Sequence record: OP018999.1
DNA: 43,714 nt
Direction: 5' to 3' (one strand)
Source: Escherichia phage NTNC80A
Shown: positions 1,100 through 6,840 of the stretch, piece after piece
How positions within the stretch are numbered: the first letter of the stretch is position 1
How the letters are laid out: each line of letters begins with the position of its first letter
Program-made: the position numbers and the translations under genes
Notes under the pieces: model-generated
Seen by the model: only the letters and a program-made list of their open reading frames with translations
What the model was told of the DNA's origin: nothing
Database searches by the model: none

Positions 1100-1363
1100 T
1101 ACGGAGGTCGCTCACAAAGTAACCAAAGTCAAAATTTTGATGTAGGCGTGTGTCAGCTCTCTCGCCCTCGCCCTCGCCGGGACGTCCCCATAGGGTGCCT
1201 AGGCATTTCTAGGGCAGCGGGAGGGCCGCCACGGGCCTTTCTTAGTGAGGGCCAAAGGTTGCCTAGGCTAGCCGGAGGAGGGCCGAGGAGGGCCATTCAG
1301 GGCCGCTTGACAGCGTGTGTGGGCGTGGGCTATCTGTCCGTTTGTCGCTACGCTCCGCACTCA
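1100..1363. other. GC-rich repetitive tract, candidate terminal-repeat / concatemer-junction region
   Basis: Abrupt GC-rich non-coding DNA with short repeats (CTCGCC x3, GCCTAGG x2, GAGGGCC x3) between the last late gene and the first early promoter, where T7-group genomes carry their terminal redundancy. Confidence 0.35.
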
Positions 1364-1516
1364 CTACCTGACGTGTACCTTAGTTATTACCTTAGTAACT
1401 TCCTTATCGTGTACCTTGAGATAGTCTTAGTTACTACCTTAGTCACTTCCTTAGTAGCTACCTTAGTGAGTGGCTTAGTGGCTATCTATTGCTGTCTTAG
1501 TGTTACCTTAGTGATT
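1364..1516. repeat. tandem array of ~12 imperfect 12-bp repeats (core ACCTTAGT)
   Basis: Read directly: taccttagttat / taccttagtaac / ttccttatcgtg / taccttgagata / gtcttagttac / taccttagtcac / ttccttagtagc / taccttagtgag / tggcttagtggc ... taccttagtgat. Resembles the short repeat arrays next to the T7 terminal repeat. Confidence 0.7.
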
Positions 1517-1659
1517 GCATAGCTAAAGCTATAAGATGCAAATAGGTCGCGGTCGGTAGGCCGCTAAAGAAAGAGAATAGTAATAAGATGCAGTAGGAGG
1601 AACACCAGAAACCTAGCCAACCTAGCCTATCCTAGCCTTGTATCTATTGCTTTTCCTTA

Positions 1660-1675
1660 GTCTCACATGTTAGAC
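1660..1675. repeat. imperfect copy (15/16) of the 16-bp palindrome GTCTCACATGTGAGAC
   Basis: Sequence gtctcacatgtTagac. Confidence 0.5.
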
Positions 1676-1742
1676 AACCTAGGTTTATCTTAGTAGTTGT
1701 GACATGTATCACATAAATAATCTATCTTAGTGAAATTTAGTG

Positions 1743-1771
1743 TTGACACAGGCAATAGCTGGTAGTACATT
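1743..1771 (+). promoter_or_regulatory. host sigma70-type early promoter
   Basis: -35 TTGACA 1743-1748, 17-bp spacer, -10 TACATT 1766-1771. Leader contains GCTCTTTAACAATTTG (1822-1837), shared with the second early promoter. Confidence 0.55.
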
Positions 1772-1892
1772 ACAGTCATCGGGAGGCAACATAGCCAAAC
1801 GGTAGGTAACTAAGTTACCTTGCTCTTTAACAATTTGCTTAGTGTAACCTATGTATGCCGTGGTTAATTACTTATTGAATGAGGAGTTAACT

Positions 1893-1991
1893 ATGAATTA
1901 CGAAAAACTGTATAAAGCCTATTACTATAATGCATTAGTGAGAGGAGAAGAGCCTTTGTCTTTCGCTGAGTTTATGGAGGCTATATCATGA
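1893..1991 (+). CDS. early micro-protein (32 aa), hypothetical
   Basis: SD GAGGAG 1881-1886, ATG 1893, TGA 1989-1991 overlapping the next start (ATGA). Confidence 0.4.
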   Translation: MNYEKLYKAYYYNALVRGEEPLSFAEFMEAIS

Positions 1992-2182
1992 TAAGACTTT
2001 ATCGCTGTAAATATAGCGAGGGTTATTACACCTTAGAAGGTAACACATTAACACGTATTACCTATGGATACCGCCAGAGGCAGTATACACATCCTAAGAT
2101 AGACCATGCGGCTTGCTTGGCAATAGGCTTGGTTTTGATAGGTAATAACTTTGAGGGGTACTACTTCAATGACTCTAACTAA
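1988..2182 (+). CDS. early hypothetical protein (64 aa)
   Basis: ORF track; SD GGAGG 8 nt upstream; translationally coupled to the previous ORF. Confidence 0.5.
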   Translation: MIRLYRCKYSEGYYTLEGNTLTRITYGYRQRQYTHPKIDHAACLAIGLVLIGNNFEGYYFNDSN

Positions 2183-2345
2183 CCGTGAGCTGTCCGTTCT
2201 CTTCACTTTGTTATGCTACATGATTCGTAACAACGAATTACTTACAGATGACGAGTTAGCTTTGTATCATCGCTTCCTTAGCGAAGGTTGGACCGATACA
2301 GTTAACCAGAAACGTGACTTGATGGAGGAGTTAAGCAATGTTTAA
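2169..2345 (+). CDS. early hypothetical protein (58 aa)
   Basis: In-frame ATG 2169 with SD GAGGGG upstream (ORF track gives 2151); overlaps neighbours. Confidence 0.45.
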   Translation: MTLTNRELSVLFTLLCYMIRNNELLTDDELALYHRFLSEGWTDTVNQKRDLMEELSNV

Positions 2346-2547
2346 ACATGAGATTTACACTGATTGCAGTAAATCGGCTAAAGCTATCTGCGAGCTGTAC
2401 AAGGCAGAATGCCAGACGTACAACCTCAACGATGGAACTGAGATGTTTTATCTTCAGTTTGAAAGCAAGTTATCTCACAAACGAGTGATTAACAGCCTGA
2501 ATCAACACTCTTTGGAGTGGGAAGAAGTAAATAGCAATAAAGTTTAA
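2338..2547 (+). CDS. early hypothetical protein (69 aa)
   Basis: ORF track; start overlaps the previous stop; SD GGAGG upstream. Confidence 0.5.
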   Translation: MFKHEIYTDCSKSAKAICELYKAECQTYNLNDGTEMFYLQFESKLSHKRVINSLNQHSLEWEEVNSNKV

Positions 2548-2555
2548 ATTAACTG

Positions 2556-2584
2556 TTGACAGCCACGGCATACAAGGTTACATT
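2556..2584 (+). promoter_or_regulatory. host sigma70-type early promoter
   Basis: -35 TTGACA 2556-2561, 17-bp spacer, -10 TACATT 2579-2584; same hexamers as the promoter at 1743. Leader has GCTCTTTAACAATTTGG (2607-2623). Confidence 0.55.
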
Positions 2585-2652
2585 AGGCACATAGCCGAGA
2601 GGCAACGCTCTTTAACAATTTGGATAGCTTCTTAGTCTGGCGAGGTTAGATC

Positions 2653-2676
2653 TAGGGTATTCTTTTGAGTACCCTA
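2653..2676 (+). promoter_or_regulatory. stem-loop in the Ocr 5' leader, RNase III-site-like
   Basis: tagggtattc-tttt-gagtacccta: 10-bp stem (one G-U) with UUUU loop, about 35 nt upstream of the Ocr start, positionally like T7 R0.3. Confidence 0.35.
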
Positions 2677-2711
2677 TAATGTAACCTAACTAACTAATGA
2701 GGATTAATAAC

Positions 2712-3068
2712 ATGGCTATGTCTAATATGACTTACTCTCAGGTTTACAACACTGCTCATGCTGCACTGGTTGAGCGTGTATGGGACGATGCTATTGATTG
2801 CGTTGACAATGCACACGATGCAATCCATGAGGTAGCTGATAGTGCTGTGCCTGTCTACTATGCTGACATTTTCTCAGTGATGGCGAGTGAAGGTATCGAC
2901 CACTTCTTCGAGGATTCTGGCTTAATGCCAGACACTAAAGACGTAACGGTCGTACTACAAGCCCGTATTTATGAACAACTTACCATTGATTTATGGGAAC
3001 GTGTTCAAGATATGATTGATGCATACATCGACTCTGCTGAGGATTCAGAAGAAGAAGAGGAAGAATAA
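2712..3068 (+). CDS. ocr: Ocr-like anti-restriction DNA-mimic protein (T7 gp0.3-like)
   Basis: 118 aa, MAMSNMTY... N-terminus, strongly acidic, ends EDSEEEEEE. Block [34 protein letters not shown]...[14 protein letters not shown] matches T7 gp0.3 as recalled. SD-like GAGGA precedes ATG 2712. Confidence 0.75.
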
Positions 3069-3174
3069 GGATGGAAAAGCAATACAATTTCCTCTTTTCT
3101 GATGGTGTAACCCTGAAGTGTTCCTTGCGATTTGCACAAATTCGGGAGGAAGTGCTAGGCACTACATATAAACT

Positions 3175-3198
3175 ATTTAGCTGACACTATAAGAGAAG
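3175..3198 (+). promoter_or_regulatory. off-consensus phage-type promoter-like sequence
   Basis: atttagCtgacactataAgagaag: two mismatches to the phage consensus, including A instead of G at +1; upstream of the 3265 gene. Confidence 0.3.
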
Positions 3199-3264
3199 AC
3201 TTAACAGGGCGTTACTTGTTAGCGCCCGATTAAGTTTATCTCAATGAAACAAATAGGTGACTAT

Positions 3265-4149
3265 ATGACTACTGAAAACATCCTCGTTTCTGTTCGTGAA
3301 GCTGCAACCGCTGAAATTAAGCAACACTTAGACAATATCGGCACTTCTTATCTCCGTGTTGGCGCTTGTCTTAATGAGCTACGCGGTGACTTTGAAGGTC
3401 AAAAAGACTTTTTGGCTTATGTAGAATCGGAGTTCGGCATCAAGAAAGCACAATGCTACAAGCTGATGAGCGTAGCCCGTGTCTTTGAAGGTGATGACCG
3501 TTTCAAAGGTGTGGCGATGCGTGTAATGCTGGCCCTTGTTCCTTTCGCTGATGAAAGTATCATCATGGAGAAGGCCGCAGAACTCGCCGCAGATGGCAAA
3601 TTGGACACTAACGCCGTAAACGCCCTGATTGAGCCTAAGAAAGAGCCAAAGGCCGAAACGGTACAATCTAAGGCTGAGGCGGTAAAACCGCAGGAGAACG
3701 TGACTGAGGCCGCAGAATCACAGGAAACGCAAGCGCCGCAGGTAGTTCCGCCAGTGAGTGAGCCGGAGGCTGACGAATCAGCACCGTGGGAAGAGGGAAG
3801 CAAGCCGGAAGCGCCAAAGGCCGCGCCACTGGACAACACGGCTAACACTGAGAACGCCGCCATGTCTGGCCTGCTGGCGCAGATTAAGTCACTGACTGAG
3901 CAATTACAGGCAGCTAACGACCGCATCGCCGCCCTAACCAGTGCACGCGAAAGCAAGAAAGCAGCCGCGCCTATGCTTCCACAGTTTAAATCTTCTTGCT
4001 TTTACGCTCGCTTAGGCTTGAGCGCGGAGGAGGCAACGAAGAAAACAGCAGTGAACAAGGCACGCCGTGAACTGGTTAAGCTGGGATACGGTGAAGGCCA
4101 TGAGGCATGGGCTTTAATATCTGAGGCAGTAGAAGAATTAACTAAGTAA
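3265..4149 (+). CDS. early hypothetical protein (294 aa): globular N-domain, acidic/Pro-rich linker, coiled-coil C-region
   Basis: ORF track 3244..4149; ATG 3265 has the better SD (GGTGA). Central segment KKEPKAETVQSKAEAVKPQENVTEAAESQETQAPQVVPPVSEPEADESAPWEEGSKPEAPK is low-complexity. No kinase motifs seen. Confidence 0.6.
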   Translation: MTTENILVSVREAATAEIKQHLDNIGTSYLRVGACLNELRGDFEGQKDFLAYVESEFGIKKAQCYKLMSVARVFEGDDRFKGVAMRVMLALVPFADESIIMEKAAELAADGKLDTNAVNALIEPKKEPKAETVQSKAEAVKPQENVTEAAESQETQAPQVVPPVSEPEADESAPWEEGSKPEAPKAAPLDNTANTENAAMSGLLAQIKSLTEQLQAANDRIAALTSARESKKAAAPMLPQFKSSCFYARLGLSAEEATKKTAVNKARRELVKLGYGEGHEAWALISEAVEELTK

Positions 4150-4212
4150 CCTTATCGGTGGCATCTTCTTAGGTGTCACCTATTAAGGTTTCTTTAACTA
4201 GGAGTACACAAG

Positions 4213-6840
4213 ATGCAAGATTTACACGCTATCCAGCTTCAACTAGAGGAAGAAATGTTTAACGGCGGTATTCGCCGCTTTGAAGCAGACCAACAGCGCC
4301 AAATTGCATCGGGTAATGAATCCGATACGGCTTGGAATCACCGCTTGTTGTCTGAGCTAATCGCGCCTATGGCTGAAGGTATTCAGGCTTACAAGGAAGC
4401 CTACGAAGGCAAGAAAGGACGCGCACCGCGTGCACTGGCTTTCATTAACTGCGTAGAGAACGAAGTGGCAGCATATATCACGATGAAAATCGTAATGGAT
4501 ATGCTTAACACTGATGTAACCTTGCAAGCCATAGCAATGAATGTAGCTGACCGCATCGAAGACCAAGTACGCTTCAGCAAGCTGGAAGGTCACGCCGCCA
4601 AATATTTTGAGAAAGTTAAGAAGTCACTCAAGGCAAGTAAGACTAAATCATATCGCCATGCGCACAATGTAGCTGTAGTGGCTGAGAAGTCAGTTGCCGA
4701 ACGTGACGCAGACTTCTCCCGCTGGGAAGCGTGGCCTAAGGATACCTTGCTACAAATCGGGATGACCTTGCTCGAAATACTGGAGAATAGTGTATTCTTC
4801 AACGGGCAGCCTGTTTTCCTACGCACCTTGCGTACTAATGGCGGCAAACACGGCGTTTACTACTTACAGACCAGTGAACACGTAGGCGAGTGGATAACTG
4901 CCTTCAAAGAGCACGTAGCGCAACTGAGTCCGGCCTATGCACCTTGCGTTATCCCTCCGCGTCCGTGGGTGTCACCTTTTAACGGCGGTTTTCACACTGA
5001 GAAAGTAGCAAGCCGCATCCGTCTGGTAAAAGGCAACCGTGAGCACGTCCGTAAGCTAACCAAAAAGCAAATGCCTACGGTCTATAAGGCTGTTAATGCT
5101 TTACAGGCTACGAAATGGCAGGTTAACAAGGAAGTGTTACAGGTTGTGGAAGACGTAATACGGCTTGATTTGGGCTATGGTGTGCCTTCCTTTAAGCCAC
5201 TCATCGACCGTGAGAACAAGCCAGCTAACCCCGTGCCTGTTGAGTTCCAACATTTGCGCGGTCGTGAGTTGAAAGAAATGCTAACGCCGGAGCAGTGGCA
5301 AGCCTTCATCAACTGGAAGGGCGAATGCACCAAGCTATACACCGCCGAAACTAAGCGCGGCAGTAAGTCGGCAGCTACCGTTCGCATGGTTGGACAAGCC
5401 CGAAAATACAGCCAGTTTGACGCGATCTACTTCGTGTATGCACTGGACAGCCGAAGCCGCGTTTATGCGCAATCTAGCACGCTTTCCCCGCAGTCTAACG
5501 ACTTAGGCAAGGCATTGCTCCGTTTTACCGAAGGGCAGACTATAGACAGCGCTGAGGCGCTTAAGTGGTTTTTGGTGAACGGGGCTAATAACTGGGGTTG
5601 GGATAAGAAAACTTTTGACGTGCGCACTGCTAACGTGCTGGATGGAGAGTTTCAAGATATGTGCCGCGATATTGCAGCCGACCCGCTGACTTTCACTCAA
5701 TGGGTAAATGCTGATTCTCCTTATGGATTCCTTGCGTGGTGCTTCGAGTACGCTCGTTATTTAGATGCACTGGATGAAGGTACACAGGACCAATTCATGA
5801 CGCACCTACCAGTACACCAAGATGGTAGTTGTTCTGGTATCCAGCACTATAGTGCAATGCTACGTGATGAGGTAGGCGCGAAGGCGGTAAACCTTAAGCC
5901 TTCCGACTCGCCGCAAGATATTTATGGGGCGGTGGCGCAAGTAGTTATCCAGAAGAATTACGCTTACATGAATGCAGACGACGCAGAGACTTTTACGTCT
6001 GGAAGCGTAACACTTACAGGTGCAGAACTGCGTAGCATGGCGAGCGCATGGGATATGATAGGAATCACTCGCGGCTTAACCAAAAAGCCGGTAATGACCT
6101 TGCCTTACGGATCCACTCGCTTAACCTGCCGTGAGTCAGTGATTGATTATATCATTGATTTGGAAGAAAAAGAGGCGCAGAGAGCTATTGCAGAAGGGCG
6201 GACGGCTAATCCGGTGCACCCTTTTGATAATGACCGCAAAGACTACCTAACACCTGGTGCAGCTTACAACTATATGACTGCTTTAATTTGGCCTTCTATT
6301 TCTGAGGTTGTTAAAGCACCTATAGTGGCGATGAAGATGATTCGTCAGCTTGCACGTTTTGCAGCTAAAAGAAATGAAGGCTTAGAATATACCCTACCTA
6401 CTGGCTTCATCTTGCAACAAAAGATAATGGCTACCGATATGCTTCGTGTATCCACTTGCTTGATGGGTGAGATCAAGATGAGTCTACAGATTGAGACGGA
6501 TGTAGTTGATGAAACGGCAATGATGGGCGCTGCCGCTCCTAACTTTGTTCACGGGCACGATGCTAGTCACCTTATATTAACGGTATGTGACCTAGTTGAT
6601 AAAGGGATTACATCTATTGCGGTCATCCATGACTCTTTCGGGACTCATGCAGGCCGCACCGCAGACCTGCGGGATAGCTTAAGGGCAGAAATGGTTAAGA
6701 TGTATCAAGGCCGTAATGCTTTACAGCAACTGCTGGATGAGCATGAAGAGCGTTGGCTAGTAGATACTGGCATCCAAGTGCCAGAGCAAGGGGAGTTTAA
6801 TCTTGAAGAGATATTAGTTTCTGACTATTGCTTTGCATAA
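4213..6840 (+). CDS. single-subunit DNA-directed RNA polymerase, SP6-type
   Basis: 875 aa; start [24 protein letters not shown] and motifs [33 protein letters not shown] match SP6 RNAP as recalled; end ...YCFA. Its specificity fits the promoters in this window. Confidence 0.97.

What the first reader, a model, noticed from the sequence alone, without database searches (positions are those of the whole stretch)
1893..2547. Early operon of four translationally coupled micro-genes behind a host-type promoter
Four ORFs of 32-69 aa overlap by ATGA/TAATG-type junctions and follow the first sigma70-like promoter. They precede Ocr, the position where T7-group phages keep host-takeover and anti-defense factors. 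None resembles a protein I recognise.
Basis: inference. Interest (0 to 1): 0.55.

Follow-up and report, generated by a model that had tools for sequence, protein, structure and literature searches.

The report
Known SP6-type early small-gene operon
The four tiny overlapping genes are real and are the first genes an SP6/K1E-type phage expresses, but they belong to already annotated families of unknown function, one of which is known to trip a bacterial suicide system.

Summary
Window 1893-2547 carries four overlapping same-strand genes of 32, 64, 58 and 69 aa. Each has its own Shine-Dalgarno site. They lie behind the first strong sigma70-type promoter, 585 nt from the physical left end of a Vectrevirus (SP6/K1E/K1-5-like) genome, and upstream of Ocr.

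All four are under purifying selection (dN/dS 0.05-0.42). They are not new. ORF1 matches SP6 gene 0.6, ORF3 matches SP6/K1-5 gene 1, and ORF4 matches SP6 gene 2. ORF2 is a rare insert also found in phages LL11, RoP3a and UAB_Phi78, and LL11 carries the same four-gene set, annotated as hypothetical proteins. ORF3 and ORF4 form an invariant core pair (26 of 26 loci). ORF1 and ORF2 sit in a variable slot.

No homology or fold match gives a biochemical function: ORF3 models as a three-helix bundle and ORF4 as a generic ferredoxin-like fold. A 97%-identical ortholog of ORF4 ("orf24", Silas et al. 2023) triggers prophage-encoded cell death in E. coli ECOR61.

The operon most likely encodes early host-directed or accessory proteins. 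Its targets remain unknown.

In passing: an rrn-type boxA follows each promoter. The first boxA opens a near-invariant 71-nt leader, and both boxA sites mark cassette-exchange joints.

The parts
1743..1771 (+). P1, a sigma70-type promoter (TTGACA, 17 nt spacer, TACATT); the first strong host promoter, 585 nt from the genome's left end
   Evidence: The same promoter type is found in most of the 12 GenBank relatives; several (e.g. K1-5, ULINTec4, CC2, UAB78) have a different -10 hexamer..TACTAT.
1804..1820 (+). 7-bp hairpin immediately 5' of boxA, in the rrn boxB-then-boxA order. This segment is not conserved among relatives, so its role is uncertain.
   Evidence: One search flagged it as terminator-like. 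Searches show that sequence upstream of boxA diverges.
1822..1833 (+). boxA1, GCTCTTTAACAA, an exact match to the rrn-type boxA consensus GYTCTTTAANA
   Evidence: two exact copies in 43.7 kb, 0.26 expected; 1-5 copies in each of 12 related early regions; consensus from PMC5725501.
1822..1892 (+). 71-nt leader from boxA to the first ATG, including the GAGGAG Shine-Dalgarno site at 1881-1886; near-invariant across the subfamily
   Evidence: 22 distinct sequences including SP6, K1E, K1-5 and Klebsiella phage VR702. The spacing is 71 nt where ORF1 or ORF3 comes first (the 71-nt spacing was computed for ORF3-first loci and follows by subtraction for ORF1-first ones, ORF2-first loci not checked).
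1893..1991 (+). ORF1, 32 aa, acidic peptide (pI 4.65); SP6 gene 0.6 family (phrog_2061); variable-slot gene
   Evidence: (dN/dS 0.20-0.35).
1988..2182 (+). ORF2, 64 aa, basic (pI 8.6); a rare accessory insert between ORF1 and ORF3. Homologs occur only in LL11, RoP3a, the UAB_Phi78/BP12B group and 6 metagenomic clusters.
   Evidence: (dN/dS 0.22-0.30).
2169..2345 (+). ORF3, 58 aa, acidic (pI 4.5) three-helix protein; SP6/K1-5 gene 1, K1E gp1 (phrog_9275); core gene of the subfamily
   Evidence: 101 phage records; dN/dS 0.05-0.20; 26/26 loci.
2338..2547 (+). ORF4, 69 aa, beta-alpha-beta-beta-alpha-beta fold; SP6 gene 2 family (phrog_6403); 97% identical to VEc3 AUE22229.1, which is orf24 of Silas et al.
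2556..2584 (+). P2, a second sigma70-type promoter with the same hexamers as P1
   Evidence: conserved in 11 of the 12 relatives examined; not found in SP6.
2607..2618 (+). boxA2; with its flanks it aligns to the T7 boxA at T7 position 813, between promoter A3 and gene 0.3
2628..2701 (+). Long stable hairpin just before the Ocr Shine-Dalgarno site, in the position of the T7 R0.3 RNase III site (that identification rests on my own knowledge)
   Evidence: (dG -38.1 kcal/mol, z -4.3).
2712..3068 (+). Ocr (T7 gp0.3 homolog), the next gene downstream on the same early transcript
   Evidence: (67% identity, E 2e-47).

Best explanation
This is the leftmost, first-entering and first-expressed part of the early (host-RNA-polymerase) transcription unit of an SP6/K1E-type phage.

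Proposed mechanism:
- Host sigma70 RNA polymerase starts at P1.
- The nascent RNA carries an rrn-type boxA in a near-invariant 71-nt leader. This probably recruits NusB/NusE and converts the polymerase into a termination-resistant complex (inferred).
- The four small genes are then translated as a coupled chain, because each start codon and its Shine-Dalgarno site lie inside the preceding gene (the arrangement is shown; the coupling itself is inferred).
- With no terminator after ORF4, transcription continues through P2 and boxA2 into Ocr and on toward the phage RNA polymerase gene.

The products are small soluble proteins that most likely act by binding host or prophage-encoded proteins in the first minutes of infection. 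ORF3 and ORF4 (SP6 genes 1 and 2) form an invariant adjacent pair. ORF3 is strongly conserved, which suits a conserved host target. ORF4 diverges rapidly and comes in several sequence types, which suits an arms race. ORF1 and ORF2 occupy a swap-in/swap-out slot, as accessory genes do. The ORF4 type found here is recognised by a prophage-encoded Icd-like abortive-infection system in E. coli ECOR61 (shown for a 97%-identical ortholog). None of the four has a known molecular target.
For: - Coding and selection.
- Promoter, left end and lack of a terminator.
- boxA and leader.
- Overlapping junctions with embedded Shine-Dalgarno sites, conserved in SP6, K1E, VEc3 and others.
- Architecture of 26 loci, P1-boxA-[variable slot]-ORF3-ORF4-P2-boxA-[0-3 cassettes]-Ocr.
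- ORF3 occurs in 101 phage records with dN/dS 0.05-0.20.
- ORF4 falls to 29% identity within the subfamily.
- The genes are absent from 5,426 complete E. coli genomes.
- The ORF3 family has only four confident family representatives among 1.84 billion cluster representatives (two further weak hits looked spurious), so it is specific to this phage lineage.
Against: - I found no expression data (RNA, ribosome profiling or proteomics) for these genes in any phage.
- No inhibited defence system or host target is known. The orf24 result shows that the protein is sensed, not what it does for the phage.
- Fold searches gave only generic folds, and sequence searches found no characterised relative.
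- boxA function and translational coupling are inferred from sequence only.
- The structure models have moderate confidence (pLDDT about 81; for ORF4 the other four models scored 47-64).
Confidence: 0.6

Rival explanations
1. The ORFs are chance open frames in a non-coding left-end leader, and the region acts only as DNA or RNA.
For: The ORFs are very short (32-69 aa), no protein family gives a function, and the flanking leader is conserved at the nucleotide level.
Against: Every frame stays open with conserved starts and Shine-Dalgarno sites in up to 101 phage records, down to 29-65% amino-acid identity. Synonymous changes are in excess in all four. The ORF coverage seen has a probability of about 5e-5 by chance. 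The ORF4 ortholog gives a protein-dependent phenotype.
Confidence: 0.02
2. The genes are translated mainly as filler. Ribosomes on the early RNA would protect it from Rho, or pace transcription-driven DNA entry, and the protein sequences would matter little.
For: The position at the very start of the entering DNA. boxA elements suggest that termination or elongation control matters here. The slot before ORF3 tolerates zero, one or two genes.
Against: dN/dS is well below 1 for all four and about 0.05-0.15 for ORF3. ORF3 has 20 invariant residues across 27 sequences. Both modelled proteins are predicted to fold. orf24 has a specific phenotype. With boxA present, translation is not needed to resist Rho.
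Confidence: 0.06
3. The proteins serve phage-directed or phage-versus-phage roles rather than host takeover or anti-defence. Examples would be timing the switch from host to phage RNA polymerase, or excluding superinfecting and resident phages.
For: The only known interaction of the ORF4 type is with a prophage-encoded system that the authors call superinfection exclusion. ORF3 is universal and highly conserved like a core regulator. ORF2 is basic and could bind nucleic acid.
Confidence: 0.2

Closest known systems
SP6 early genes 0.6, 1 and 2 (AY370673: AAR89993-AAR89995), K1-5 genes 1 and 2, and K1E gp1
   Same: Same position after the first host promoter and boxA, and the same order. The junctions match: 0.6/1 overlap by 4 nt and 1/2 by 8 nt. 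ORF3 is 66% identical to SP6 gp1 and 87-91% to K1-5/K1E gp1. ORF1 is 61% identical to SP6 gp0.6, and ORF4 is 29% identical to SP6 gp2.
   Different: The window has an extra gene, ORF2, inserted between the 0.6-type and 1-type genes. Its ORF4 is a different sequence type from SP6 gp2 and from the 74-aa K1-5 gp2.
Escherichia phage LL11 CPT_LL11_001-004 (MH729818)
   Same: The same four genes in the same order with the same overlaps. Nucleotide identity is 93.6% from boxA1 to boxA2. Protein identities are 100% (ORF1), 86% (ORF2), 90% (ORF3) and 91% (ORF4).
   Different: LL11 has a different, longer segment between P1 and boxA, and an extra boxA-led gene (K1E gp2.8-like) before Ocr. LL11 annotates ORF1 from the upstream ATG (46 aa).
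orf24 (UDP0024, VEc3 AUE22229.1) of Silas et al., bioRxiv 10.1101/2023.04.06.535777
   Same: 97% identical to ORF4 (2 substitutions in 69 residues). It has the same genomic position and lies in the same accessory region as ocr.
   Different: The phenotype, cell death in ECOR61 through a prophage Icd-like system, was shown for the VEc3 protein and not for this one. Its benefit to the phage is unknown.
T7 class I early region (promoters A1-A3, boxA, RNase III site R0.3, gene 0.3)
   Same: Strong host promoters at the left end, a single exact boxA (T7 position 813), and then a hairpin and Ocr. The window's boxA2-to-Ocr segment aligns with T7.
   Different: T7 has no genes between its promoters and gene 0.3. 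None of the four ORFs resembles any T7 early protein.
E. coli rrn leader / Nus-factor boxA antitermination site
   Same: Exact match to the consensus GYTCTTTAANA, placed a few tens of nucleotides downstream of a strong sigma70 promoter in an untranslated leader.
   Different: It precedes protein-coding genes, not rRNA. No conserved boxB or boxC was established, and Nus binding was not tested.

Membership tests
SP6/K1-5 gene 1 family (phrog_9275) - ORF3 | Full-length sequence similarity to the family profile | tested here: met
   E 1.4e-38 over residues 1-58 of a 59-position profile; 58-95% identity to 12 phage orthologs.
SP6/K1-5 gene 1 family (phrog_9275) - ORF3 | Position: early region, immediately upstream of the gene 2 homolog | tested here: met
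   26 of 26 loci.
SP6 gene 2 / orf24 family (phrog_6403) - ORF4 | Full-length sequence similarity | tested here: met
   E 3.5e-27 over residues 1-69 of 69; 97% identity to VEc3 AUE22229.1; 29% identity to SP6 gp2 over the full length.
SP6 gene 2 / orf24 family (phrog_6403) - ORF4 | Triggers prophage-encoded cell death in ECOR61 | not testable with these tools
   Reported for the VEc3 ortholog only. The window protein differs at residues 11 (S for N) and 19 (E for D).
SP6 gene 0.6 family (phrog_2061) - ORF1 | Sequence similarity, and position as the first gene after the boxA leader | tested here: met
   E 2.9e-9; 56-100% identity in 8 phages, all 71 nt after boxA.
Translationally coupled operon | Stop/start overlap, with the downstream Shine-Dalgarno site inside the upstream gene, at every junction | tested here: met
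   overlaps of 4, 14 and 8 nt, with GGAGG, GAGGGG and GGAGGAG upstream of the starts.
Translationally coupled operon | Downstream translation depends on upstream translation | not testable with these tools
   Needs reporter fusions with upstream stop-codon mutants.
rrn-type boxA (Nus-factor) site | Match to GYTCTTTAANA in a transcribed leader downstream of a promoter | tested here: met
   Conserved in all 12 GenBank relatives and in 22 distinct leaders.
rrn-type boxA (Nus-factor) site | NusB/NusE binding and Rho-resistant elongation | not testable with these tools
   No experimental data found.
Known anti-defence or host-takeover proteins (Ocr-type DNA mimics; T7 gp0.4-0.7, gp2) | Sequence or fold similarity to a characterised member | tested here: not met
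   no significant match. Only generic ferredoxin-like and three-helix folds were found.

The most novel reading that the evidence does not exclude
Two linked ideas are not excluded by the evidence.

- The boxA plus the invariant 71-nt leader may be an rrn-mimicking module. It would load Nus factors onto host RNA polymerase to give fast, Rho-proof transcription, and hence faster transcription-driven genome entry. Its repeated copies, one ahead of each early cassette, would double as recombination joints for exchanging counter-defence genes among SP6-like phages.
- The always-adjacent, coupled ORF3-ORF4 pair may be a two-subunit host-takeover factor specific to Molineuxvirinae. It would fill the role of the host-shutoff functions that T7 provides with gp0.7 and gp2. 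That SP6-like phages lack those two genes is my own recollection and was not checked here.
Probability: 0.2. Interest if true: 0.6.

Novelty: already known. Interest (0 to 1): 0.3.

Why it matters
These are the first proteins made when an SP6/K1E/K1-5-type phage infects a cell. Phages of this group are widely used against capsulated E. coli, Salmonella and Klebsiella. Their functions are still unknown even though one of them (ORF3) is universal in the subfamily. One family (ORF4/orf24) is already linked to an abortive-infection trigger, so the particular early cassettes a therapeutic phage carries could decide whether a wild host commits suicide on infection. The scan itself adds no new kind of element, only a well-supported annotation and a short list of testable targets.

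Tried and rejected
- Homology to T7 early proteins (gp0.4, 0.5, 0.6, 0.7, 1.1, 1.2, 2 and others). Profile searches of all T7 ORFs in the first 12 kb found nothing: all hits are below 7 bits, and the lowest E-value, 0.013, is a multi-fragment match to the DNA ligase ORF.
- Profile searches against PDB sequences found nothing below E 0.5. NCBIfam and PADLOC gave nothing.
- A deep profile search with ORF3 against 1.84 billion cluster representatives returned only family members plus two spurious repeat proteins.
- The C-terminal L-x-L-[IV]-GNNFK motif of ORF2 also occurs in a Kagunavirus early protein (UDP0095). hhalign probability was only 66% over 22 columns, so this is inconclusive.
- Rfam on 1100-4300 gave only one sub-threshold snoRNA hit, taken as chance.
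- Literature: the primary SP6, K1-5 and K1E genome papers are not in the held library. I therefore could not check whether they already describe the boxA sites. Searches for expression or deletion data on these genes found none.

Full report
**What the window is.** The region matches Vectrevirus genomes (Autographiviridae, Molineuxvirinae: K1E, K1-5, LL11, VEc3 and others) at 86-96% nucleotide identity, in patches. The large ORF at 4213-6840 is an SP6-type RNA polymerase (the identification is from my own knowledge of the SP6 sequence). Position 1 of the SP6, K1E, K1-5 and VEc3 records maps to window 1158-1162. The window is therefore a circularly permuted assembly, and the finding lies at the physical left end, the DNA that enters the cell first in T7-group phages (established knowledge).

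**Checking the observation.**
- The four ORFs are ORF1 1893-1991 (32 aa), ORF2 1988-2182 (64 aa), ORF3 2169-2345 (58 aa) and ORF4 2338-2547 (69 aa).
- They overlap by 4, 14 and 8 nt. Each start has a GGAG/GAGG-type Shine-Dalgarno sequence inside the preceding gene.
- P1 (TTGACA-17-TACATT, 1743-1771) scores 10 of 12 against the sigma70 consensus and is the first such site after the left end.
- An identical-hexamer promoter, P2, follows ORF4 at 2556-2584.
- Ocr (2712-3068) is 67% identical to T7 gp0.3.
- + strand ATG-ORFs cover 100% of the region. Markov simulations average 26% and reach 95% or more in 5e-5 of 20,000 runs.

**Are they genes?** Yes. All four frames are conserved as proteins in related phages.
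- ORF1 occurs in 25 GenBank phage records at 59-100% identity.
- ORF2 occurs in 3 records, plus a Salmonella-phage group at 43-48%.
- ORF3 occurs in 101 records infecting Escherichia, Salmonella, Klebsiella, Citrobacter and Raoultella.
- ORF4 occurs in 38 records, down to 29% identity.
- Pairwise Nei-Gojobori dN/dS against the window is 0.20-0.35 for ORF1, 0.22-0.30 for ORF2, 0.05-0.20 for ORF3 and 0.07-0.42 for ORF4. The excess of synonymous change is significant in every case (p from 3e-3 to 3e-9).
- The longer 46-aa version of ORF1, which LL11 annotates, is unlikely. It lacks a Shine-Dalgarno sequence, and its ATG is followed by TAA in SP6, UAB_Phi78, VR702 and L026 although the surrounding DNA is conserved.

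**What they correspond to.** In SP6 the homologous genes are annotated 0.6, 1 and 2, with the same 4-nt and 8-nt overlaps. K1-5 has genes 1 and 2, and K1E has gp1. LL11 has all four genes in the same order, annotated as hypothetical proteins. PHROGs places ORF1, ORF3 and ORF4 in phrog_2061, phrog_9275 and phrog_6403, all of unknown function. ORF2 has no PHROG.

**Architecture across 26 loci** (12 GenBank, 13 IMG/VR, plus the window):
- The common layout is P1, boxA, a variable slot, ORF3, ORF4, P2, boxA, 0-3 further small cassettes (most of them preceded by their own boxA), Ocr, then the gene 4 homolog.
- The variable slot holds nothing, ORF1, ORF1+ORF2, ORF2 alone, or ORF1 plus an unrelated 75-aa gene.
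- ORF3-ORF4 is the invariant core.
- Homology blocks between the window and its relatives begin and end repeatedly at the same points. These are the P1 -10 element (1772), boxA1 (1815-1822), gene starts and ends (1893/1991, 2169, 2335-2360), P2 (2545-2589), boxA2 (2602-2623) and the Ocr start.
- This is a cassette mosaic with joints at gene boundaries and regulatory motifs.

**Search for function.**
- No Pfam, NCBIfam, PADLOC or PDB-sequence match, and no similarity to any T7 early ORF.
- A word-indexed search of 5.8 billion proteins found only phage-contig homologs: 115 clusters for ORF3, 6 for ORF2 and 6 for ORF4.
- An exhaustive profile search with ORF3 against 1.84 billion representatives found only four confident representatives of its own family, plus two weak hits that looked spurious.
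- There is no match in 5,426 complete E. coli genomes.
- ORF4 models as a beta-alpha-beta-beta-alpha-beta ferredoxin-like domain (pLDDT 80.9 for the best model, 47-64 for the others). Its matches are generic, and its closest viral neighbours are uncharacterised proteins of similar size from other phages, including the Citrobacter phage CrRp3 homolog.
- ORF1, ORF3 and ORF4 are acidic; ORF2 is basic.

**The one experimental handle.** The accessory-gene library of Silas et al. (bioRxiv 10.1101/2023.04.06.535777) contains UDP0024, which is VEc3 AUE22229.1. It is 97% identical to ORF4. Their supplementary ORF24 AlphaFold file begins MFKHEIYTDCNKSAK, which confirms that orf24 is this protein. The paper reports three things:
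- orf24 is narrowly distributed and sits in the same accessory region as ocr.
- All six linked prophage genes are needed to reconstitute the effect.

No counter-defence activity was assigned to orf24. The K1-5-type gene 2 variant (UDP0096) and the alternative slot gene (UDP0004) were also in the library, but they are not among the genes listed as giving phenotypes. If that reflects a true negative, sensing is specific to the ORF4 variant.

**Most likely mechanism** (shown and inferred steps are marked in the structured fields). Host RNA polymerase starts at P1. A boxA-bearing leader probably makes the complex termination-resistant. The four genes are translated as a coupled chain, and transcription continues into Ocr because no terminator intervenes. 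The products are probably small binders of host or prophage proteins. ORF3 would act on something conserved. ORF4 looks engaged in an arms race. ORF1 and ORF2 look like exchangeable accessories. I put about 0.9 on 'real, early-expressed protein genes' and about 0.55 on 'host-directed or anti-defence', which gives 0.6 for the combined statement.

**Novelty.** The genes, their order and their overlaps are already in GenBank annotations of SP6, K1-5, K1E, VEc3 and, for all four together, LL11. One family has a published phenotype. The finding is a correct reading of a known feature whose function remains open, so interest is modest.

**Side observations.**
- Both copies of GCTCTTTAACAA in the 43.7-kb window lie 23-51 nt downstream of the -10 hexamers of P1 and P2. 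They match the gamma-proteobacterial boxA consensus GYTCTTTAANA exactly (PMC5725501).
- Every one of 12 related early regions has 1-5 copies. T7 has one, between promoter A3 and gene 0.3.
- The 71 nt from boxA1 to the first ATG are almost invariant from SP6 to Klebsiella phages, more conserved than any of the coding sequences. They precede whichever gene comes first.
- The segment from boxA2 to Ocr aligns with T7 and contains a very stable hairpin in the place of T7's R0.3 site.
- I could not access the original SP6, K1-5 and K1E genome papers, so I cannot say whether these boxA sites were already described.

Noticed in passing
window 1822-1833 and 2607-2618; also L001-L012 and T7 (L013) position 813: An exact rrn-type boxA (GCTCTTTAACAA, consensus GYTCTTTAANA) follows each sigma70-type early promoter. 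These are the only two copies in the window. Each of 12 related early regions has 1-5 copies, and T7 has one between promoter A3 and gene 0.3.
   Followed up: partly
window 1822-1892: The 71-nt leader from boxA to the first start codon is near-invariant in 22 distinct SP6-like early regions (Salmonella, E. coli and Klebsiella phages). It is more conserved than the genes and is the same whichever gene follows. Sequence just upstream of boxA is unrelated between phages. This suggests a functional RNA or DNA element beyond boxA itself.
   Followed up: partly
window 1772, 1815-1822, 1893/1991, 2169, 2335-2360, 2545-2589, 2602-2623, 2707-2715: Homology blocks with 25 related loci start and stop repeatedly at these points, which are promoter hexamers, boxA sites and gene boundaries. 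The early region is therefore a cassette mosaic whose joints coincide with the repeated regulatory motifs.
   Followed up: partly
window 2628-2701: Very stable hairpin (dG -38 kcal/mol, z -4.3) between boxA2 and the Ocr ribosome-binding site. The segment aligns with the T7 region upstream of gene 0.3, where T7 has its R0.3 RNase III site.
   Followed up: partly
window 1376-1520: Array of imperfect 12-nt CCTTAGT-type repeats in the non-coding left end, upstream of P1.
   Followed up: no
window 1158-1300: The physical left end of the genome maps here, so the window is a permuted assembly. The region is G+C-rich and has short direct repeats (1188-1204/1252-1268 and 1220-1241/1277-1298). No second copy of a terminal repeat is present in the window.
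   Followed up: partly
window 2300-2345 (ORF3 C-terminus) and the homologous parts of L005, L010, L021-L025: The last ~10 residues of ORF3 co-vary with the type of gene 2 that follows. '...KRDLMKELSNV' goes with the 69-71-aa type, and '...YRNMIDELREGK' goes with the 74-aa K1-5 type. The cause is either a recombination joint inside the ORF3 3' end or a functional contact between the two proteins.
   Followed up: no
window 3071-3184: 37-aa gene directly after Ocr (SP6 gene 4 family, phrog_11746), found in 24 of the 26 loci examined (the other two fetched segments end before it). Function unknown.
   Followed up: no
window 3244-4149: 301-aa gene (phrog_4571, unknown function) with an Ala/Pro/Glu-rich central stretch, lying just before the RNA polymerase gene. 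No Pfam match.
   Followed up: no
window 2348-2488: 46-aa alternative-frame ORF inside ORF4. It stays open in several relatives, most likely as a by-product of ORF4 conservation.
   Followed up: no
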